Origin: a virus
Lineage: Duplodnaviria > Heunggongvirae > Uroviricota > Caudoviricetes
Direction: 5' to 3' (one strand)
Virus record (IMG/VR): IMGVR_UViG_3300015186_000011
Location: 1-26,051 of that record
DNA length: 26,051 bases
Positions 1,763 to 9,200 of this stretch are shown here, piece after piece (the stretch's first letter is position 1; every line of letters begins with the position of its first letter). The position numbers and the translations under genes were made by a program. The notes under the pieces are model-generated. The model had not been told where the DNA came from, searched no databases, and was given only the letters and a program-made list of their open reading frames with translations.

Positions 1763-1914
1763 GTGTAAAGCGCACCTATTCTATGGTGGGCTGTGTGGGG
1801 GCACCGAAAGGTGCGCCGGGTTCCTTTGTAGCCGGTAAGACCAACTCTGCACAGTTCACCACCATCTGATTGGTCTCAGCGGTGGTGATTAACCTAACTA
1901 CAAAGGTGATCGCC

Positions 1915-2607
1915 ATGAATACCAAACCTTCCATCTTTTCCTTTGAGTCATCCTGCCAGATCCGTATGTTCATGATTGACGGAGAACCTTGGTTTGTCAC
2001 CAAAGATGTGTGCAATGCTTTGAATATTGATGTTACACAAGCGAGAAAACTTGATAAAAAAGGCTGGAACAAAAAGGGGCTGTATTCAATACAGACCCCT
2101 GGTGGAATACAAGAACTATCCATCGTTTCAGAATCAGGTCTCTACATCCTTATTCTGCGTTGCAAAGAGGCAATGACTGAGGGAACGAGAGCATTCAGAT
2201 TTCTTGAATGGGTTACAGGTGAGGTTCTTCCTCAGATCCGCCGCACCGGAAGTTACATTAAAAACTCGCTCCCGCAGGAAGAACGCATAAAGATGGTTGC
2301 CGACCAGGTAGCCAACGCCACGGCGTCAGCAGTGATGCAGGCGATGAAGATAGAGAACAAAACCTACAGTGCCCCACTGAAGCCCGGCTACCGCAGCCTG
2401 ATTCATTCGCCGTCTGGTGTTCTCGGCCTGACGGAGAACTCACTGCTGATGAATTTGCTGAACAAGTTACAGGAAGACGGGCACGATGTATCGGGCGCGG
2501 CAGCGGAGCTGACCACCATGTTCTGCTACATCGTCGGTGTGAGCAAATGCCTGCGTGATATCCAGACGCACGCGGAGTACATCAATGACAAGGCAGGGTT
2601 CTTCTGA
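1915..2607 (+). CDS. BRO-N domain antirepressor-like protein (230 aa) with the shared C-terminal domain
   Basis: ATG at 1915 preceded by AAGGTG. The N-terminus SIFSFESSCQIRMFMIDGEPWFVTKDVCNALNI...GGIQELSIVSESGLYILILRC...AFRFLEWVTGEVLPQIRRTGSY is the classic Bro-N pattern. The C-terminal 78 aa are nearly identical to those of the Ant homologue. Confidence 0.85.
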   Translation: MNTKPSIFSFESSCQIRMFMIDGEPWFVTKDVCNALNIDVTQARKLDKKGWNKKGLYSIQTPGGIQELSIVSESGLYILILRCKEAMTEGTRAFRFLEWVTGEVLPQIRRTGSYIKNSLPQEERIKMVADQVANATASAVMQAMKIENKTYSAPLKPGYRSLIHSPSGVLGLTENSLLMNLLNKLQEDGHDVSGAAAELTTMFCYIVGVSKCLRDIQTHAEYINDKAGFF

Positions 2608-2630
2608 CGGGCGGCGGCACATGGATGTGC
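2374..2630. repeat. Left arm of a 257-bp inverted repeat (partner 3835-4091)
   Basis: By-eye alignment with the reverse complement of 3835-4091 shows about 11 mismatches and no indels. It covers the last ~78 codons, the stop and a GGCACA-n4-TGTGC hairpin. Nearly all differences are synonymous (one K/Q change). Confidence 0.9.
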
Positions 2631-2692
2631 CTACAATTATCAATAATTGTTTACACTCGTTGCAGTTAAAAGCATTATACTCATGTTTAAAA

Positions 2693-2707
2693 TTACCCGA
2701 TTGGTAA
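2693..2707. promoter_or_regulatory. TTACC-N5-GGTAA dyad (site E) upstream of the cassette genes
   Basis: TTACCcgattGGTAA lies 22 nt before the ATG at 2729. A possible TTTACA (2650-2655)-17-CATTAT promoter lies upstream. Confidence 0.4.
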
Positions 2708-2728
2708 AGTCGATTGGTTGAGGTTCAT

Positions 2729-3055
2729 ATGAGCAGAAGATATGTCAAGGAGCTGGCTATAGAGTCTGGCACCCCTTTGGGTATCGTTCCTGGCTCCAAC
2801 TATGCCAAGGCTTTAAACCGAGACTCTGTCGTCAAAGTTATATCAAGAGACATGAATATGGTCGGAGACGATCTCAGACGGTCAGAAAATCGTGTTTATG
2901 CTGAATATATAGTAAAGAACGGAAAAAAAATTGCAGCGCCTGCTGGCGGAAAATGGGCAATAGTGACAGGGAAAAACTCAAATGCAAGAGGAAAACCAGA
3001 AGCTAAAGGAATGTCCTTCGACAAATATGCAAAAATCTATTGGGCAACCAAGTGA
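2729..3055 (+). CDS. Hypothetical 108-aa basic protein, first gene of the cassette
   Basis: ATG at 2729 with GAGGT 5 nt upstream (the track's start at 2714 lacks an RBS). I recognise no family. The C-terminus is Lys-rich. Confidence 0.55.
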   Translation: MSRRYVKELAIESGTPLGIVPGSNYAKALNRDSVVKVISRDMNMVGDDLRRSENRVYAEYIVKNGKKIAAPAGGKWAIVTGKNSNARGKPEAKGMSFDKYAKIYWATK

Positions 3056-3530
3056 TAACGAAGAAACTGAGTTCGAGGAAGTTGAGGAAGGGCTAAGTAA
3101 CGAGATCATTCAACACCCAGATGCCTTCACAAGAGTTCTTGATCGCCCTGAAATTCAGGAGATAGTTGTCGCTCACCATGCGTTTCAGGGTCCGCTTCCT
3201 CCCCCCTATCTGCTTCGCGGGTATCAGGATATTTTACCTGATGCCCCCGAACGCATCTTCCAGCTGACGGAGAAGGAGTTTGCTCACCGCCAGAAAATGG
3301 AGGAAAAGGCACTTGACGGGGCTATTAATAGAGATAAACGTGGGCAGTGGTTTGGCCTGAGTGCAACTATTTTTACAGTAGCTTGTGCAACATTATTAGG
3401 TTTAACAGGTCATGAAGTTCTAGCTGGCACAGTGATCGGTACAGTTGTTGCAGTGGCTGGTATTTTTGTTCTCAGACAAAAACCGAGCTTAAAGAAGAAC
3501 GCTGAAGATAAAACACCAGAAGAAGAGTAA
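2982..3530 (+). CDS. DUF2335-like membrane protein (start ambiguous: 2982 or 3027)
   Basis: An acidic N-terminus is followed by HHAFQGPLPPPYLLRGYQDILPDAPERIFQLTEKEFAHRQKME and two C-terminal TM helices. From memory this is the DUF2335 signature. It overlaps the upstream ORF in another frame. Confidence 0.7.
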   Translation: MQEENQKLKECPSTNMQKSIGQPSDNEETEFEEVEEGLSNEIIQHPDAFTRVLDRPEIQEIVVAHHAFQGPLPPPYLLRGYQDILPDAPERIFQLTEKEFAHRQKMEEKALDGAINRDKRGQWFGLSATIFTVACATLLGLTGHEVLAGTVIGTVVAVAGIFVLRQKPSLKKNAEDKTPEEE

Positions 3531-3551
3531 GCCCGCGACGCGGGCTTTTTT
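3531..3551 (+). terminator. Rho-independent terminator
   Basis: GCCCG-cgacg-CGGGC followed by TTTTTT, immediately after the stop codon at 3528-3530. Confidence 0.85.
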
Positions 3552-3623
3552 GTGGGCGAAACAAAAGTCAGTGCTACACTCATTGACGCCACATTGAGGT
3601 GGTTTATAGATGGAAATTTCACA

Positions 3624-3785
3624 ATGAAAAAAGCATTTGCTGCACTGTTCGTTTTGTTGTCTCTGGTAGCTTCAACTCAGGCCTTTGCCGGTCGTTGTCA
3701 GCACGACAGCGACACTGCTGCTGACGGCTCCCGCTGCGGTGGGCGTTCTGCGGATTCCCGCCCGGGCGGCGGTGGCATTCGTTAA
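3624..3785 (+). CDS. Small secreted peptide (53 aa) with a signal peptide
   Basis: MKKAFAALFVLLSLVASTQAFA|GRCQHDSD...: a typical Sec signal with an AFA-G cleavage site. The mature ~31 aa carries 2 Cys and a Gly-rich tail. TTGACG (3583-3588)-16-TATAGA lies upstream. The track's ORF start at 3552 is unlikely. Confidence 0.5.
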   Translation: MKKAFAALFVLLSLVASTQAFAGRCQHDSDTAADGSRCGGRSADSRPGGGGIR

Positions 3786-3790
3786 AAACA

Positions 3791-3808
3791 AGGCCGCGAA
3801 AGCGGCCT
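3791..3808. terminator. GNRA-loop hairpin terminator between convergent genes; the U-tract is on the minus-strand (ant) side
   Basis: AGGCCGC-gaaa-GCGGCCT. The minus-strand transcript would continue as UUGUUUUUA. There is no U-tract on the plus strand. Confidence 0.7.
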
Positions 3809-3834: not shown

Positions 3835-4091
3835 GCACATCCCTGTGCCGCCGCCCGTCAGAAGAACCCTGCCTTGTCGTTGATGTACTCCGCGTGCGTC
3901 TGGATATCACGCAGGCATTTGCTCACACCAACGATGTAACAGAACATGGTGGTCAGCTCCGCCGCCGCGCCCGATACATCGTGCCCGTCTTCCTGTAACT
4001 GGTTCAGCAGATTCATCAGCAGTGAGTTCTCCGTCAGACCGAGAACACCAGACGGAGAATGAATCAGACTGCGGTAGCCGGGCTTCAATGG
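3835..4091. repeat. Right arm of the 257-bp inverted repeat (partner 2374-2630)
   Basis: See the left arm. It covers the 3' end of the ant homologue plus ~23 nt beyond its stop. Confidence 0.9.
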
Positions 4092-4802
4092 ATAACCATA
4101 ACATTTTGTCTGTGTTTTAATTGCCTCACGAAGCGCATCTAACATCTTGACTGCCACTTCATCATTCTCTGATGCAGATCCAGCAGGGAGATACTCCCCT
4201 TCAAGCGGAACCCGAGCAACAAGAGACAACGCTTCGGCAAATTGATCTTCACCAATTTCTTTGTACGAACAGCCAAAATGAGATTTCAGTGACGACCACA
4301 TGGTGATCATCGCCTTAGCCTGTTTTTCTTTTGGCAGAGACTGACCGCGACTCATGACGAGTTGTTTAATGGCTTCCTGCTGTTCAGTTGTTATTTTACC
4401 CGGCAACGCCTTTTTAGCTTTGCGTGGGTTAACCACATGGCCTTTAGTCCAGTACTCGTAGAGCACATCGTCACACTCTTCCTGATACTGGATTACCTTG
4501 TCGCGGATTTCAGGGCGGACTTTGTTAGGGCTGATGGTTTGCAGCCAACCTGCAAGTTTGCGTAAAGCAAGACAGATAACCAGACGACGCTGAGTATCAC
4601 CGGGGAGCTGAATGGTCATTTCGACCATGCAGCTCTTAAAGCGTTGTTGCAACTTGCGGAACTGCGTTTTCCAGTCCAGCCCCATACCTTCAACGACTGG
4701 TTTCATTGGGGTGTATGGTTCGCCGTTATGATTGACAACATAAAGCTCTGCGCCGTGGAATGGCACGTTGATAGTAGATACCGCTGTTGCTATACTCGTC
4801 AT
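3858..4802 (-). CDS. ant: Antirepressor, P22 Ant-type N-terminal domain (314 aa)
   Basis: VPFHGAELYVVNHNGEPYTPMKPVVEGMGLDWKTQFRKL...LRKLAGWL fits the P22_AR_N pattern from memory. It sits directly downstream of an Arc-like gene and opposite an Mnt-like gene, as in P22 immI. Confidence 0.85.
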   Translation of the reverse strand: MTSIATAVSTINVPFHGAELYVVNHNGEPYTPMKPVVEGMGLDWKTQFRKLQQRFKSCMVEMTIQLPGDTQRRLVICLALRKLAGWLQTISPNKVRPEIRDKVIQYQEECDDVLYEYWTKGHVVNPRKAKKALPGKITTEQQEAIKQLVMSRGQSLPKEKQAKAMITMWSSLKSHFGCSYKEIGEDQFAEALSLVARVPLEGEYLPAGSASENDEVAVKMLDALREAIKTQTKCYGYPLKPGYRSLIHSPSGVLGLTENSLLMNLLNQLQEDGHDVSGAAAELTTMFCYIVGVSKCLRDIQTHAEYINDKAGFF

Positions 4803-4877
4803 GTCGTTAATTCCTATACGTAGTTTTACGATACTGAAGCCCTGACGGTCTGGCCACCGTGGGGCTTCGCTGTTTTA
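4803..4877 (+). ncRNA. sar-like antisense RNA (~70 nt) covering the ant RBS and the arc-ant spacer
   Basis: A strong promoter, TTGATA (4768-4773)-17-TATACT (4791-4796), lies inside the first ant codons and points the other way. Predicted TSS is ~4803. A terminator hairpin at 4836-4868 is followed by GCTGTTTTA. Geometry and size mirror P22 sar. Confidence 0.5.
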
Positions 4878-5042
4878 TGCCACGCTATTCTTCTCACCAG
4901 TGAGTCCATACACTTTCCTCAGCTGATAGATAATCTCTGTATTGAACTTTCGGCATTCTTTTTCGCCATTTCTTTCAATAGCTAACTTCACATCGTCCGG
5001 AAAACGAACTCGTCGTTGACACATCTCTTTTGCTTTTTGCAT
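4875..5042 (-). CDS. arc: Arc-like ribbon-helix-helix repressor (55 aa)
   Basis: ATG at 5042 with AAGGAG 7 nt upstream (the track's start at 5063 lacks an RBS). RVRFPDDVKLAIERNGEKECRKFNTEIIYQLRKVYG parallels P22 Arc (FNLRWPREVLDLVRKVAEENGRSVNSEIYQRVMESF). Confidence 0.75.
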   Translation of the reverse strand: MQKAKEMCQRRVRFPDDVKLAIERNGEKECRKFNTEIIYQLRKVYGLTGEKNSVA

Positions 5043-5132
5043 TTCATATCTCCTTAGCCCCACCGTGGGGCAAAATAATTGTCACACCGTGCGTCATTGA
5101 TGTCAAGCACACGGTGAGGCATACTTCAATCA
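5043..5132. promoter_or_regulatory. Divergent overlapping promoters with RHH operators (Pant-like / Pmnt-like)
   Basis: Minus strand: TTGACA (5106-5101)-17-GACAAT (5083-5078). Plus strand: TTGATG (5097-5102)-17-CATACT (5120-5125). A 15-bp palindrome GCCCCAC-C-GTGGGGC sits at 5057-5071, at the predicted +1 of the ant promoter. CACCGTG (5085-5091) and CACGGTG (5110-5116) each lie in a promoter spacer. Confidence 0.6.
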
Positions 5133-5162
5133 TTGCAAGTAACTCAATATTTGGTGAAGAAC

Positions 5163-5594
5163 ATGAGCAGAGAAGATCCACAACTAAGGATCAGACTTCC
5201 CGTTGAAGTAAAAGAAAAAATAGAAATTTCTGCAAAAGCCAATAAGCGATCAATGAACGCTGAAATAGTACAACGTCTTGACACCAGCTTTCTGAAAGAT
5301 ATTCATGAAGATGACGTAATTTCTGCTTATGAAGCAAAAATTATTGCAAACAATGCACGACATGAAATATCAAATATTATTTTCAAAAGAACCTTTAATG
5401 AAATTAATAAGAAAATAACACTTGGACATACAAGTTTTTATATAAACCTTAATGACCTTGAACTGGAATCACTTGCAGATAATGATTACCAGATCATCTT
5501 TGAAAAAACATTTAATAAGCTCAATGAACTAGGTTACATCATCTGTGAAAACTCATGGGATGCAGATGGTTTTGGAATTGAAATACCTGAATAG
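5163..5594 (+). CDS. mnt: Mnt-like RHH repressor with an extra AT-rich C-terminal domain (143 aa)
   Basis: MSREDPQLRIRLPVEVKEKIEISAKANKRSMNAEIVQRL aligns with P22 Mnt MARDDPHFNFRMPMEVREKLKFRAEANGRSMNSELLQIV (from memory). The ATG at 5163 follows GGTGA. P22 Mnt is only 83 aa, so the last ~90 aa are additional. Confidence 0.8.
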   Translation: MSREDPQLRIRLPVEVKEKIEISAKANKRSMNAEIVQRLDTSFLKDIHEDDVISAYEAKIIANNARHEISNIIFKRTFNEINKKITLGHTSFYINLNDLELESLADNDYQIIFEKTFNKLNELGYIICENSWDADGFGIEIPE

Positions 5595-5605
5595 GAAGAA
5601 CAAAA

Positions 5606-5632
5606 GGCGTGTACATATTACACGTCTTTAAT
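5606..5632 (+). terminator. Hairpin terminator after the mnt-like gene
   Basis: GGCGTGTA-catat-TACACGTC (8 bp including one GU pair) followed by TTTAAT. Confidence 0.55.
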
Positions 5633-5684
5633 ACAATTGAAAAACGCCACATTACTGATGTATGTTACAACAAGGAGCGATATT

Positions 5685-6248
5685 TTGAAAACCATATCTA
5701 TATTAAAGGTTGCATTAGGCGTCGCTATTATTTTGACTCTCTCAATATTGTTTTATTTTTACCACAAAAAAACTGCTATTGCTCTTGATGGTCACGCGGC
5801 AAACTCATTTTTCTCAGAGTACATAGTGCCGCTATCAGGAAGCGGTATAACAAATAAATATACTGACTATGACATCAAATATGGAATTGATGATGGGGAG
5901 ACTATTGTATTACATGTAATCATTAAAAACCTAATGACAGTAAATAAAAATACAGACTTCAACGATAAAAATACAATACATCACAACAACAGCAAAACAT
6001 TAATTTCTTATAGTAGCAACATCTATACGGATAAATACCTAAAATACATATCAGAAGATACAATAAAAGAAACCCGCGAAAAGTTAAAAAACATATATTG
6101 TGCATCCGGCAGTTTTCACAAATTATCGCCGCAAGAGCGTTTATTCTACGAAGCAAGAAAACAACGTAAGTCAATAATATTACATTATTATGCTGATTCA
6201 GGGGAGTCACTCATATTTAATATTGGGGTTTCCCCTGAATCATGCTAA
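5685..6248 (+). CDS. AT-rich N-terminally anchored membrane protein (187 aa from TTG 5685; 196 aa from ATG 5658); SieA-position moron
   Basis: AAGGAG at 5672-5677 lies 7 nt before TTG 5685, giving MKTISILKVALGVAIILTLSILFYFYHKK (a signal anchor). The ATG at 5658 and the TTG at 5637 have no RBS. The region is visibly low in GC compared with its flanks. I recognise no family. Confidence 0.6.
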   Translation: MKTISILKVALGVAIILTLSILFYFYHKKTAIALDGHAANSFFSEYIVPLSGSGITNKYTDYDIKYGIDDGETIVLHVIIKNLMTVNKNTDFNDKNTIHHNNSKTLISYSSNIYTDKYLKYISEDTIKETREKLKNIYCASGSFHKLSPQERLFYEARKQRKSIILHYYADSGESLIFNIGVSPESC

Positions 6249-6259
6249 AGGTGTTTAAC

Positions 6260-9200
6260 TCACCGCATCACCGGATCCACCTGGTTTATTAGTGGCGCAA
6301 TCCAGAACAGGTTATTGCCGGGTATCAGGGTTCGGACATTATGCACAATACGATCACCGGCATCACCATTCAACACTCCTGCGGTCACATCAATGATGCT
6401 ATCCGCAAGACCAAATGACGGTCCGAATAGAGATCCTACGAATCCACGACTGGCATACCTAGACTGTGTGCCAGTGCCAAATAAAGCCCCCAGCCCAACA
6501 GCACCACCAGTAGCCTTTTCAGCCATGTTGTTATATTCCATCAATGGCCCAAGAATACCGGATCTATCTATACCCTCAAGCACCAGCTTCTCTGGTGACC
6601 AGTCAACATTTTTCCCTTTCGATGCTTCTTTAAGCGCATAGACCAGTGAGCCAAGAGCAATCTGAAATGCAGTGCCATAATAAAATTGCGCAGTTCCTTC
6701 CTGTAACCCACCAAGTAGCGCACGGTTGTATGAAGCCGTTGTGAATGATTTAAACTGAAATATCGTTCGCCCCATTGGAGTACTCGCCCATAAAGGTGTG
6801 TCACCAATACCGGGGGTGATGATAGTGTTATTAACGTCTTTCAGAACCGCTGACTGGAATACTCCGGCAACGTACTGATCGTCCCATTTATCAAAGTTAC
6901 CAATGTGCCATCCATCAATTACCTCACCATGTTTCTCGAACTCACTGCGAATACGCGCAGCCATATTGTCGTTGATACCGAGTTTTGCCATGCGACGTGC
7001 AGAAAACGCACCAGACAAAATACCGTCTGACGTGAGCATTCCGTTCATGGATTTGTTTATGTCATTAAATCGATCCATGAGTGTCAGCTTGCCGAAGGCA
7101 TCAGTAATTCGCTCCATTCCTGCTTCGACTGCTGTTGTCCTGGAAGAACTGTCAACAAGATCACCAATTGCACGAGAACGTGAATGTAGTACAGTTTCCA
7201 ATCCAATCCCCATCTTCAACATCTCTTCTTTGCTGGCCTTAAATGCCGGTGATTGGGATATCTGAGAAGCATAGCCTTTCATGGTGTTACGGAAACCATT
7301 AACCATAACCCCTCTGGCCAGATCTGGAATAGCTGATACTGTCATTCCACCGAGTTTGGTCGTGAAGTTCACATCCCGCAGAAAAGCGCCAGCACGAACA
7401 AAAAACGAAGACGGGTCATCAGGCATACCATATGTACCAACAAGACGATCGCGTAATGCTGTTATGTCTCTGAGATCATTTGCTCTTGATTTTGAAAGTC
7501 TGGACTGTTCTTTCCGTAATTCCTTTTCGTACTTTCGCATTAATGAATCGAGTTTACCCTGAGGAACAACTTCACCATTGCTCTCATAACGTGCTTTCAG
7601 ATTTGCCACACTTTCGTCATATTTCGCCTTTATTTTTTCAGGCACTTCCCGTAACAGACTGTCATATTCGTCCTCAATTAATTGCAGACGCTCAGTCATA
7701 GTTCGTTTGCCAAATGTTCTCGTCAACTCAATTTCTGCTGCCGCTTCACGGATATGACGTTGCAGCACGTAATTCACATCACTTTCAAGATAATCCCTGA
7801 TAAGACTATCAGGAACATTTAATGTTCTTTCTTTCGTACTACCTGCGGCTTTTACAGAAAATACGCTGACAAAATCCTGTGGAACCTTAGCACCAGTAAT
7901 TTTATTAATTACGATATCCGCTGCAATTTCAGCATCCTCAGGATCCAGTGTTTTATTGCCTCTCGACCACCAGTCAACCAAAATACGTCGAAATTTATCG
8001 CGTTCACTGATTATTTTTCCAACTTTATATATACGTGGAAAATAGCTTGCCTGGCCTAATGCTTTCAGTTCTTCATCTGGCGGTAATAAACCAAGCTTTT
8101 GCATTTCAACCTTCACCCGATTTAATACAGTTCGCATCGCCTGCGCCGTTTCCTGAACAACAGGATTAGCATGCACATCACCGCTTCGCATAGCATTCCC
8201 AACCTGCTGACGAAATGAATCAAAACTCATGTCGCCACCATCAGCTTTATACTTTGCGTATGCCTGTTTATTTCCGACAACAACAGCAGCTTCTTCACGC
8301 TGCCATCCACGTGTACGGGTTTCTACAGCTACCGGTGTTTCAATCCCCCTTTCATTTCCTTTAAGGGTGAAATTATTTTCGGCTAACTCCAGCGTTGTTT
8401 TTCGCACTGTCTTGGACGGAGACTCCATTAACCTTGTCAAAGGAGTAAGATAGCTCCCTGCTTTCCATGCAGCCTTTCCAACCCACCCACCGGAAACAGG
8501 GGTTAAATCATCCAGAGTCGCTGTATCAATTTTCATAGCACCAACACTACCACCATCAGAAAGCGAAGCGGCAGCCCTGTCAGTCGCTGATGTAATGCTC
8601 ATATTATCAAGAGCATCAGCAACCTCACGCGTGGCTGCAGCCCGGACGGATGGCGAAAGCGCAACACCAGCACTGGCAAACACGCCGCTCATCATCGCAC
8701 CCGCTGCAACGTGAGCGGCACTTTCACCCCATGAGCGTGTTATTTGCTGATTATTCAGCACAACCTCGCTTAATGCTGTACCGGCAGCACCAATCGCAAT
8801 CTGTGAGCCAATACGCGCCAGTGCCCCTCCTTGAGCACCGGGGATAAACATTGACGCAACAGTAACCGGATCCATTCCCGCAGCAATACTGGCAAGAGTT
8901 CCAACTACGCCAGCATCAGACAATAAACGTCTGTCTTCATTTTCATCATCTATCTGCTGCTTAATCCACGCCGTTTCCTCTGGCGATCGGGAATCTGCAA
9001 ATTTCGCCCCCCAGTATTCATAACCGTGCAACTCATTTTTATCAGCATATGGGTTATAACCTTCGACCGGTTCAAACTGTCTGGCTGGTCGGAAAAAACC
9101 AGCCAGAATATTGTTCTGTCGCATTGCAGCCCCCCATACGGAAGGCTCCGGTGGCAATGGCTCAGGATTAGCCCCTTCCGGAAGGGCAACATCAAACCCA

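What the first reader, a model, noticed from the sequence alone, without database searches (positions are those of the whole stretch)
5163..6248. AT-rich island: extended Mnt plus an unrecognised membrane-anchored protein in the SieA position
From roughly 5300 to 6248 the sequence is visibly much more AT-rich than the flanking structural genes, which suggests recent horizontal acquisition.

It encodes the C-terminal extension of the Mnt homologue. After a hairpin terminator (5606-5632) and a possible TTGAAA-18-TATGTT promoter, it encodes a 187-aa protein with a single N-terminal TM anchor (MKTISILKVALGVAIILTLSILFYFY) and an Asn/Lys/Tyr-rich body that I cannot assign.

In P22 the equivalent slot, opposite-strand and next to mnt, holds the superinfection-exclusion gene sieA. 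The gene converges on the 1004-aa late gene with only 11 nt between the stops (6249-6259) and no terminator. Late transcription would therefore run antisense through it.
Basis: partly seen in the sequence, partly recalled or inferred. Interest (0 to 1): 0.5.

Follow-up and report, generated by a model that had tools for sequence, protein, structure and literature searches.

The report
Periplasmic prophage protein in the sieA slot
A sharply AT-rich 1.1-kb island in an E. coli podovirus prophage carries a lengthened Mnt repressor and a stand-alone gene for an uncharacterised periplasmic protein that sits where phage P22 keeps its superinfection-exclusion gene sieA, so it is a testable candidate for a new way of blocking phage DNA injection.

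Summary
Bases 5163-6248 have 32.4% GC, against 49.4% (sd 3.1) for the rest of the window. This is the lowest-GC stretch in the window.

The window is a prophage almost identical to Escherichia phage TL-2011b. It has a complete P22-type immI module: ant, sar RNA, arc and mnt. The Mnt homologue aligns with all of P22 Mnt and then has about 57 extra residues.

The 187-aa ORF starts at TTG 5685, after an AAGGAG ribosome-binding site. It occupies the position of P22 sieA, but it is not a SieA homologue. It has one N-terminal anchor, lacks the SieA motif and shows no sequence similarity.

It belongs to a small unnamed family found in E. coli, Providencia, Proteus and metagenomes (28-45% identity), with two conserved cysteines. 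In all 10 contexts examined the gene converges on the 3' end of the last giant internal-virion (ejection) protein gene, even though the two genes recombine independently.

Best reading (confidence about 0.4): a prophage moron whose periplasmic domain blocks DNA ejection by related phages. The function is untested.

The parts
3858..4802 (-). ant (antirepressor, 314 aa), part of the immI module
   Evidence: Pfam P22_AR_N E 2.9e-45; PHROG 524 anti-repressor Ant.
4804..4871 (+). sar antisense RNA homologue, between arc and ant
   Evidence: Rfam RF00262 sar: 44.8 bits against a gathering score of 43, E 3.3e-7, full length 1-68 of 68.
4875..5042 (-). arc (55 aa by the PGAP start; the mechanical ORF extends to GTG 5063)
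   Evidence: BLASTP to P22 Arc: 33% identity, E 5e-5, starting at the internal Met. PGAP and RefSeq both annotate a 168-bp CDS.
5043..5162 (.). Divergent control region (Pant/Pmnt equivalent) with repeated CACCGTG/CACGGTG half-sites
   Evidence: Strand - promoter-like TTGACA-17-GACAAT at 5106..5078. Inverted repeats at 5057-5067 / 5080-5091 / 5110-5121 and the palindrome 5054-5074. That these are operators is inferred.
5163..5594 (+). Extended Mnt homologue (143 aa): ribbon-helix-helix 1-46, Mnt-like region to about 86, extra tail 87-143
   Evidence: PHROG 1388 matches full length. Comparison of alleles gives 7 synonymous and 2 non-synonymous codon differences. The tail has relatives only in E. 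coli and one metagenome protein at 54% identity.
5603..5629 (+). 11-bp hairpin after mnt, a possible mnt terminator
   Evidence: RNA fold. The scan calls a terminator-like site only on the - strand. An A-to-G change in alleles keeps the pair as G-U.
5610..5666 (+). Two overlapping promoter-like sites (TGTACA-16-TACAAT at 5610-5637; TTGAAA-18-TATGTT at 5637-5666)
   Evidence: not above chance. In alleles L005 and L007 the first site becomes TGTGCA-16-TATAAT and the second loses its -10 element.
5672..5677 (+). Shine-Dalgarno AAGGAG, 7 nt before the TTG start
   Evidence: Read directly from the sequence.
5685..6248 (+). ORF187: N-terminal signal-anchor (about residues 4-27) plus a periplasmic domain (about residues 30-187) with conserved Cys139 and Cys187
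6249..6259 (.). 11-nt spacer between the two convergent stop codons
6260..9274 (-). Last and largest internal virion (ejection) protein gene, 1004 aa; conserved neighbour of the ORF187 family
   Evidence: PHROG 342 'internal virion protein' E 6e-210. Same adjacency in 10 of 10 contexts.
6270..6285 (+). Weak hairpin plus T-rich tail inside the 3' end of the late gene; a possible end of the ORF187 transcript
   Evidence: It lies within the 35-nt segment that 39 other E. coli genomes share.

Best explanation
The island is the mnt side of a P22-type immI immunity module, followed by a self-contained moron.

ORF187 is translated from TTG 5685. A single N-terminal signal-anchor inserts it in the inner membrane. 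It exposes a disulfide-stabilised alpha/beta domain of about 155 aa to the periplasm, and that domain has the PA3611/AspS (pilotin-type) fold.

Most likely the prophage expresses it and it acts as a superinfection-exclusion factor. It would be a non-homologous analogue of P22 SieA. The periplasmic domain would bind a segment of the incoming ejection-protein conduit (the giant internal virion proteins). That binding would stop assembly or function of the trans-envelope DNA channel of the same and related podoviruses.

Shown: gene structure, family, conserved cysteines, conserved slot.
Predicted: the fold.
Inferred: periplasmic location.
Inferred and untested: expression in the lysogen, the binding target and the exclusion phenotype.
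For: (1) The layout is the same as P22 gene 16 / sieA / mnt / arc / ant. mnt, arc, ant and sar are all homologous to their P22 counterparts.

(2) P22 SieA acts on ejection proteins gp16 and gp20, and sieA always lies next to gene 16 (PMC10883804).

(3) The ORF187 family converges on the last internal-virion-protein gene in 10 of 10 contexts (the window and L009, L012-L015, L018-L021; in L018 the short contig cuts the convergent neighbour, and for L021 the neighbours were not read). This includes T7-order genomes that have no immI, where it is the only opposite-strand gene among the late genes.

(4) The adjacency survives independent recombination of the two genes. Family versus neighbouring-protein identity is 78% versus 44% for L009/L015 and 29% versus 67% for L012/L013.

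(5) Periplasmic location: homologues have positively charged N-termini or classical cleavable signal peptides. Two cysteines are invariant or nearly so. A fusion variant ends in a second TM helix followed by TRTKKKH, which fits an N-in / loop-out / C-in topology.

(7) Moron features: lowest GC in the window. Terminator and promoter-like sites lie upstream, with hairpins downstream in homologous loci. The gene is present in some related E. coli prophages and absent from others, and the slot can hold other small membrane proteins instead.

(8) The gene is coding and under constraint: 6-8 synonymous against 7 non-synonymous codon differences between alleles, and a 21-nt in-frame deletion allele.

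(9) One variant (P0021) fuses the domain to a copy of the conserved N-terminal segment of the internal virion protein (E 1e-11 to 1e-12).
Against: There is no expression or phenotype data.

The protein has no sequence or fold relation to any known exclusion protein.

The fold match is to predicted coordinates only. It is non-significant by Foldseek E-value (0.37 and 0.41) and by profile comparison with E. coli YghG (hhalign probability 0.5%).

Related prophages fill the slot with unrelated genes. The position alone could therefore simply mark a permissive insertion site.

The residues after the TM helix in the window protein (HKK) are themselves basic, so topology rests mainly on the family.

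The fusion variant occurs in one contig only and was not found in the species-representative genomes.

Promoter calls are at chance level.
Confidence: 0.4

Rival explanations
1. ORF187 is a lysogenic-conversion moron that has nothing to do with phage exclusion. Its periplasmic pilotin-fold domain would bind a host envelope component (for example a secretin or another outer-membrane assembly client), or it would act as an immunity or protective factor against periplasm-acting toxins. Either would change host fitness.
For: The closest folds are PA3611 and the T2SS pilotin AspS, whose known role is secretin binding (PMC3542185). E. coli carries the cognate T2SS-beta with YghG. The gene has moron architecture and low GC. 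Other unrelated small membrane proteins occupy the same slot in related prophages. There is one weak Imm42 hit in one family member (E 0.0044).
Against: This does not explain why the family is always next to the ejection-protein gene in very different phage backbones and hosts. It also does not explain the fusion with an internal-virion-protein segment. The protein has no lipobox, unlike true pilotins. No profile-level similarity to YghG was found.
Confidence: 0.3
2. The protein serves the phage's own infection or lytic cycle. It might protect the newly infected or lysing cell from the virion's own transglycosylase and ejection proteins, or it might help handle these proteins. Under this reading it is not a prophage-expressed defence.
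For: The gene is strictly linked to the ejectosome gene cluster, including in T7-order genomes with no visible immunity module (L012, L020). The middle internal virion protein carries an SLT domain that acts in the periplasm.
Confidence: 0.12
3. The ORF is a true member of the P22 SieA family that has diverged beyond recognition.
For: Same genomic slot and orientation. Known SieA types share only about 25% identity with one another (PMC10883804).
Against: There is no alignment. The ORF has one TM segment where SieA has several. The conserved cytoplasmic motif FxRYPxEAxxFNK is absent. Most of the protein is a periplasmic alpha/beta domain.
Confidence: 0.02
4. The protein is irrelevant. Either the ORF is spurious, or what matters is convergent antisense transcription into the 3' end of the late gene.
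For: Only an 11-nt gap with no strong terminator separates the convergent genes in the window. In L019 the two genes overlap by 29 nt.
Against: There is a protein family with invariant Tyr, Pro, Cys and other positions at 28-45% identity. A strong Shine-Dalgarno sequence precedes the start. An in-frame indel allele exists. A confident fold prediction was obtained from a 15-sequence alignment. Providencia and Proteus loci have a GC-rich hairpin between the genes, which would stop antisense read-through.
Confidence: 0.05

Closest known systems
P22 SieA (superinfection exclusion A; Leavitt et al. 2024, mBio, PMC10883804)
   Same: Both are in a prophage of a short-tailed phage. Both lie directly downstream of, and convergent with, the last ejection-protein gene, on the mnt side of immI. 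Both are small membrane proteins apparently with their own promoter. The gene is present in only some relatives. Its sequence types are not congruent with the neighbouring ejection-protein types.
   Different: There is no sequence similarity. SieA is a polytopic inner-membrane protein with a conserved cytoplasmic motif. ORF187 has a single anchor and a large periplasmic alpha/beta domain with a disulfide. The host phage has T7-type giant internal virion proteins, not P22 gp7/gp20/gp16. The function of ORF187 is untested.
AspS (GspS-beta / YghG) T2SS pilotin and P. aeruginosa PA3611 (PDB 4ftf, 5zdh, 3npd)
   Different: No sequence-profile similarity is detectable. ORF187 is tethered by a TM anchor. 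Its E. coli clade carries an Asn/Lys-rich insert of about 29 residues. It is encoded in a prophage next to ejection-protein genes, not in a T2SS operon.
Periplasm-acting exclusion proteins of other phages (T4 Imm and Sp, HK97 gp15, T5 Llp, phi80/N15 Cor). These are cited from general knowledge and were not tested here.
   Same: The concept is the same: a small phage-encoded envelope protein blocks DNA entry or the receptor or lysozyme step of a superinfecting phage.
   Different: These families and folds are unrelated. No hit to any of them appeared in the PHROG, PADLOC or viral-structure searches.
P22 Mnt repressor
   Same: The N-terminal ribbon-helix-helix domain and the following Mnt-like region align over the whole of P22 Mnt (31% identity, E 2e-13). 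The gene is arranged divergently from arc-ant, with sar RNA present.
   Different: The protein has about 57 extra C-terminal residues of unknown role (143 aa against 82-83 aa). This tail is not related to P22 orf59a, and the extended form is rare.

Membership tests
P22 SieA family | Detectable sequence similarity to SieA type A, B or C | tested here: not met
   BLASTP against P22 SieA gives a best E of 0.15 over a hydrophobic stretch only. Types B and C were not compared directly.
P22 SieA family | Polytopic inner-membrane protein (several TM helices) | tested here: not met
   ORF187 has a single hydrophobic segment at residues 1-28. The P22 SieA sequence shows several (PMC10883804).
P22 SieA family | Conserved motif FxRYPxEAxxFNK near the C-terminus | tested here: not met
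   The motif is absent from ORF187 and from the family consensus. It is defined in PMC10883804.
P22 SieA family | Located between the last ejection-protein gene and the tailspike gene, next to immI | tested here: met
P22 SieA family | Blocks DNA injection by related phages | not testable with these tools
   Needs plating-efficiency, potassium-efflux and DNA-entry assays.
AspS / PA3611 fold family | alpha1-beta1-beta2-beta3-alpha2-alpha3-beta4-beta5-alpha4 domain | tested here: met
AspS / PA3611 fold family | Conserved disulfide between helix alpha2 and the C-terminal helix alpha4 | tested here: inconclusive
   Cys139 is invariant and Cys187 is present in at least 90% of sequences, at topologically equivalent places. 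The Cys-Cys distance in the model and actual bond formation could not be checked.
AspS / PA3611 fold family | Sequence or profile similarity to AspS/YghG | tested here: not met
   hhalign of A2 against E. coli YghG gives probability 0.5%. A profile search of PDB sequences does not return 3npd or 4ftf.
AspS / PA3611 fold family | Lipoprotein signal and T2SS operon context (pilotin proper) | tested here: not met
   No lipobox in any family member. The context is always a prophage.
Phage moron (independent accessory transcription unit) | Nucleotide composition distinct from the flanking phage genes | tested here: met
Phage moron (independent accessory transcription unit) | Own promoter and terminator | tested here: inconclusive
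   There is a hairpin upstream and there are promoter-like hexamers, but these are at chance frequency. In L009, L012 and L020 the upstream gene is divergent, so a separate promoter is required there. Terminator hairpins lie downstream in L009 and L015.
Phage moron (independent accessory transcription unit) | Present in some and absent from other closely related phages | tested here: met
   36 E. coli genomes carry the island. 39 others match only about 35 nt at the 3' end of the 1004-aa gene. The two of these examined (L003, L004) and phage EC.W1-9 hold different slot contents.
Phage moron (independent accessory transcription unit) | Expressed from the repressed prophage | not testable with these tools
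   Needs RNA-seq or 5'-RACE of a lysogen.
P22-type immI module (for the mnt part) | Mnt-type ribbon-helix-helix repressor divergent from arc-ant, with sar antisense RNA | tested here: met
i-spanin (Rz-type) | N-terminal TM plus periplasmic coiled coil, paired with an o-spanin lipoprotein in the lysis cassette | tested here: not met
   The predicted domain is alpha/beta, not a coiled coil. The gene is far from the lysis genes. TL-2011b already has Bcep176-type spanins (PMC6139136).

The most novel reading that the evidence does not exclude
The ORF187 family is a previously unrecognised class of superinfection-exclusion proteins. A periplasmic, disulfide-locked pilotin-fold domain would capture a conserved segment of the giant internal virion protein as it crosses the periplasm. 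That would jam the ejectosome of T7-core-type temperate podoviruses. Candidate target segments are the N-terminal EGYNP...SPEET motif that one variant carries as a fused copy, or the C-terminal membrane-inserting region. This would be a second, structurally unrelated solution to the problem solved by P22 SieA, evolved in the same genomic slot.
Probability: 0.25. Interest if true: 0.7.

Novelty: new variant of a known kind. Interest (0 to 1): 0.45.

Why it matters
[quoted passage not shown] How it recognises very diverse ejection proteins is still unclear.

ORF187 belongs to an unrelated protein family that holds the same slot next to the ejection-protein genes in a different podovirus lineage. 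Its soluble periplasmic domain should be easy to purify and crystallise. That would give a tractable handle on how the trans-periplasmic DNA conduit can be blocked.

It would also name an ORFan family (PHROG 8033) present in STEC, ExPEC, Proteus and Providencia prophages. This is relevant to phage-therapy host range.

If the function turns out to be something else, the family is still a new phage-borne use of the AspS/PA3611 fold.

Tried and rejected
- Word-indexed protein search with ORF187 returned only hits above 95% identity. The exhaustive HMMER search was needed to find the family.
- Pfam, NCBIfam and PADLOC gave nothing for ORF187 or its homologues. A ThsB/TIR hit (E 0.0054) lies in the Asn/Lys-rich insert and is not shared by homologues, so I rejected it as chance.
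- A profile search of PDB sequences gave iota-carbonic anhydrase (whole-sequence E 1.2e-4). It is built from three repeats that are each non-significant, and neither fold search supports it, so I rejected it.
- A single-sequence AF2 model was too poor to use (pLDDT 59.9).
- The BFVD viral structure library gave no significant match. The afdb50 library was unavailable.
- hhalign of the family profile against E. coli YghG was not significant.
- The Mnt tail is not a fused P22 orf59a.
- ORF187 does not resemble the 175-aa protein that occupies the slot in strain MS196-1.
- A related-locus scan with the family alignment failed because no stretch was conserved enough. The scan with the fusion variant found only one non-fused Proteus cibi locus.
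- Literature searches found nothing on this protein or on periplasmic exclusion of internal virion proteins.
- The i-spanin idea was rejected.
Full report
**What the window is.** Bases 4800-6400 match Escherichia phage TL-2011b (NC_019445) at 99.9% identity. The same 1.2-kb island is present at 97-100% identity in 36 of 5426 complete E. coli genomes, always chromosomal and in one copy. The surrounding genes are those of a short-tailed phage with T7-type core proteins. These are a T7 gp14-family protein, a 930-aa SLT-domain protein and a 1004-aa internal virion protein.

Region 5163-6248 has 32.4% GC. All windows of the same size elsewhere in the 26 kb average 49.4% (sd 3.1), and none falls below 41.7%.

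The stops of ORF187 (TAA, 6246-6248) and of the 1004-aa gene (6260-6262) are 11 nt apart. The hairpin is at 5603-5629, with an 11-bp stem. Its + strand U-tract is weak, and the scan flags it as terminator-like only on the - strand.

The TTGAAA-18-TATGTT promoter exists at 5637-5666. Promoter-like hits here are no more frequent than in shuffled sequence. Two divergent alleles (L005, L007) carry a 4-nt insertion that ruins its -10 element. The neighbouring site TGTACA-16-TACAAT becomes TGTGCA-16-TATAAT in those alleles.

That same insertion puts the upstream ATG 5658 out of frame. The start is therefore TTG 5685, 7 nt after AAGGAG, as PGAP also calls it.

**The immI module.** The whole P22 immI arrangement is present.
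- ant has a P22_AR_N domain (E 2.9e-45).
- An Rfam sar RNA lies at 4804-4871, above the gathering score.
- arc is 33% identical to P22 Arc.
- A divergent control region carries repeated CACCGTG half-sites and a TTGACA-17-GACAAT promoter-like site pointing towards arc.
- The Mnt homologue follows on the other strand.

This Mnt homologue's best solved relative is P22 Mnt. It aligns with the entire 82-residue P22 protein (31% identity, E 2e-13). About 57 further residues are left over.

The tail does not correspond to P22 orf59a. It has no Pfam domain. It has relatives only in E. coli and in one metagenomic protein at 54% identity. Between alleles the gene shows 7 synonymous and 2 non-synonymous codon differences. 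'Extended Mnt' is therefore correct, but the role of the tail is unknown.

The annotated P22 genome shows the order 16 -> <- sieA <- orf59a <- mnt / arc -> ant -> 9, with a promoter for sieA and a terminator after mnt. ORF187 occupies exactly the sieA position and orientation.

**ORF187 is a real gene of a small, unnamed family.** It has no Pfam, NCBIfam or PADLOC match, and PHROG 8033 is 'unknown function'. The word-indexed search saw only near-identical proteins.

An exhaustive HMMER scan of 1.84 billion representatives found 16 proteins, and a profile search added more. Members are 150-230 aa and 28-45% identical to ORF187. They come from E. coli, Providencia, Proteus and metagenomes.

The alignment shows invariant Tyr46, Pro49, Tyr62, Ile74, Leu134, Tyr138 and Cys139, and near-invariant Cys187. 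Alleles differ by 6-8 synonymous and 7 non-synonymous codons. One allele has a 21-nt in-frame deletion in the Asn/Lys-rich insert. Both facts fit a coding sequence under moderate constraint.

**Topology.** There is one hydrophobic segment, at the N-terminus. Homologues have basic N-termini. Several have textbook cleavable signal peptides, such as MKKTLLILLLSSPLATFA/AT. None has a lipobox. Together with the conserved cysteine pair, this indicates a periplasmic domain that is either tethered to the inner membrane or released. This is an inference; no topology experiment exists.

**Fold.** With the 15-sequence alignment, AlphaFold2 gave pLDDT 77.8 and pTM 0.69. Low confidence was confined to the TM region and the clade-specific insert at residues 84-121.

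The AspS paper describes an alpha1-beta1-3-alpha2-alpha3-beta4-5-alpha4 domain. A conserved disulfide ties helix alpha2 to helix alpha4 in both AspS and PA3611 (PMC3542185). In ORF187, Cys139 closes the alpha2-like helix (residues 124-138) and Cys187 is at the C-terminus, so the pair is topologically equivalent.

Profile comparison with E. coli YghG is not significant. This is therefore fold-level resemblance, not demonstrated homology. No viral structure matched.

**It is not SieA.** P22 SieA is polytopic. It shows no similarity to ORF187. The family-defining motif FxRYPxEAxxFNK (PMC10883804) is absent.

**Conserved genomic linkage.** This is the strongest new evidence. Ten contexts were examined:
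- the window;
- Providencia (L009-L011);
- Proteus (L015, L021);
- genome assemblies L019 and L020;
- metagenomic contigs L012, L013, L014 and L018.

In every one the family gene points towards, and ends 3-35 nt from or overlaps, the 3' end of the last and largest internal virion protein gene of 937-1133 aa. In the short contig L018 that convergent neighbour is cut by the contig end, and for L021 the neighbouring genes were not read. The C-terminal read-through tails of P0004, P0012 and P0014 are antisense translations of that gene end. They extend the pattern.

L012 and L020 have no immI module. There the family gene is the lone opposite-strand gene between the core-protein genes and the terminase and tail genes. 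The link is therefore to the ejection-protein gene, not to mnt.

The two genes nevertheless recombine independently. L009 and L015 share 78% identity in the family protein but 44% in the neighbour. L012 and L013 share 29% and 67%. The 2024 study reports the same non-congruence for SieA types and P22 ejection proteins.

In every locus the family gene has lower GC than its neighbours, for example 28.5% against 40% in Proteus. Low GC is thus a lasting trait rather than a sign of recent arrival.

Where the upstream gene is divergent (L009, L012, L020), a dedicated promoter is required. L014 shows a clear terminator followed by a TTGAAC-17-TACCAT site. L009 and L015 have a GC-rich hairpin between the convergent genes.

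Related E. coli prophages and phage EC.W1-9 fill the slot differently. One of them holds an unrelated 175-aa protein that also has an N-terminal TM helix. The site is therefore also a general cargo slot.

**A lead from one variant.** P0021 (L013) lacks the stop codon through a 1-nt difference relative to Proteus L015. It continues into about 100 extra residues. These contain a copy of the conserved N-terminal EGYNP...SPEET...IK..ID segment of the internal virion protein. The copy is 38% identical to its own neighbour (E 1e-12) and 50% identical to the window's protein at residues 66-111 (E 1e-11). A TM helix and a basic tail follow.

No in-frame start codon precedes the copied segment, so it can only be made as a fusion. 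The predicted topology is N-in, periplasmic loop, C-in, which agrees with a periplasmic family domain. This suggests a functional connection to the ejection protein. However, it is a single contig and was not found among species-representative genomes.

**Most likely mechanism.** P22 SieA blocks DNA injection, and escape mutations map to the ejection proteins gp16 and gp20. The best-supported reading is that ORF187 is a prophage-expressed moron whose periplasmic pilotin-fold domain binds part of the incoming ejectosome and excludes related podoviruses. I put this at about 0.4.

The main rival, at about 0.3, is a lysogenic-conversion function aimed at a host envelope component. The AspS-like fold suggests this. 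A role in the phage's own cycle (about 0.12) fits poorly with the opposite-strand placement and with the gene's patchy presence. An irrelevant ORF (about 0.05) and a hidden SieA homologue (about 0.02) are largely excluded.

**Novelty.** The island as a sequence is already in databases, annotated 'hypothetical'. Four things are new here: the family, its periplasmic AspS/PA3611-like fold, its strict linkage to the ejection-protein gene, and its status as a non-homologous occupant of the sieA slot. That makes it a new variant of a known kind (a prophage accessory or exclusion gene), of moderate interest until a phenotype is shown.

Noticed in passing
window 4804-4871 (+): A homologue of the P22 sar antisense RNA (Rfam RF00262: 44.8 bits, gathering score 43) lies between arc and ant. 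The whole P22 immI regulatory circuit therefore exists in this non-P22-like podovirus prophage.
   Followed up: partly
L013:2958-3752 (protein P0021): One family member is fused to a diverged copy of the N-terminal EGYNP...SPEET segment of the neighbouring internal virion protein, followed by a C-terminal TM helix. Compared with Proteus L015, a 1-nt difference removes the stop codon and about 290 extra bp are present. Seen in one contig only.
   Followed up: partly
window 5187-5189, compared with L001 (NC_019445) about 8388-8391: The deposited TL-2011b genome has an extra G (GG to GGG) in codon 8-9 of mnt. This frameshifts the repressor, so the record annotates only a 113-aa remnant. The window and the other prophages examined have the intact 143-aa gene. 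The extra G is either a sequencing error or an mnt-defective phage isolate.
   Followed up: partly
window 6264-6300: The last about 35 nt of the 1004-aa gene, which include a small hairpin at 6270-6285, are 100% conserved in 39 further E. coli genomes whose slot contents differ. In an ST131 prophage (L003:6001-6035) the segment lies in an intergenic region. It looks like a recombination boundary.
   Followed up: no
L004:5448-5975 (+), L003:5680-5976 (-): Related E. coli prophages carry other small membrane proteins in the same slot: a 175-aa protein with an N-terminal TM helix in the same orientation, and a 98-aa Gly-rich membrane protein. Both have low GC (35% and 38%) and are unrelated to ORF187.
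   Followed up: partly
window 5043-5125 and 4848-4868: The motif CCACCGTGGGG / CACGGTG recurs three times in the arc-mnt control region and once in the hairpin downstream of arc, which is probably the sar terminator. These are candidate Arc/Mnt operators.
   Followed up: no
window 5937-5975 (ORF187 residues about 85-97): The E. coli clade, together with P0006 and P0007, has an Asn/Lys-rich insert of about 29 residues that the rest of the family lacks. One allele (P0001) has lost 7 residues of it, between short direct repeats. The model has low confidence in this region.
   Followed up: no
window 1870-3800, compared with L001, L002, L005-L007: The stretch between ant and the tailspike gene is a mosaic of opposite-strand cargo that differs between otherwise near-identical prophages. 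It includes Bro-N proteins, a YafO-family toxin, DUF2335, DUF4760 and a 53-aa membrane protein.
   Followed up: no
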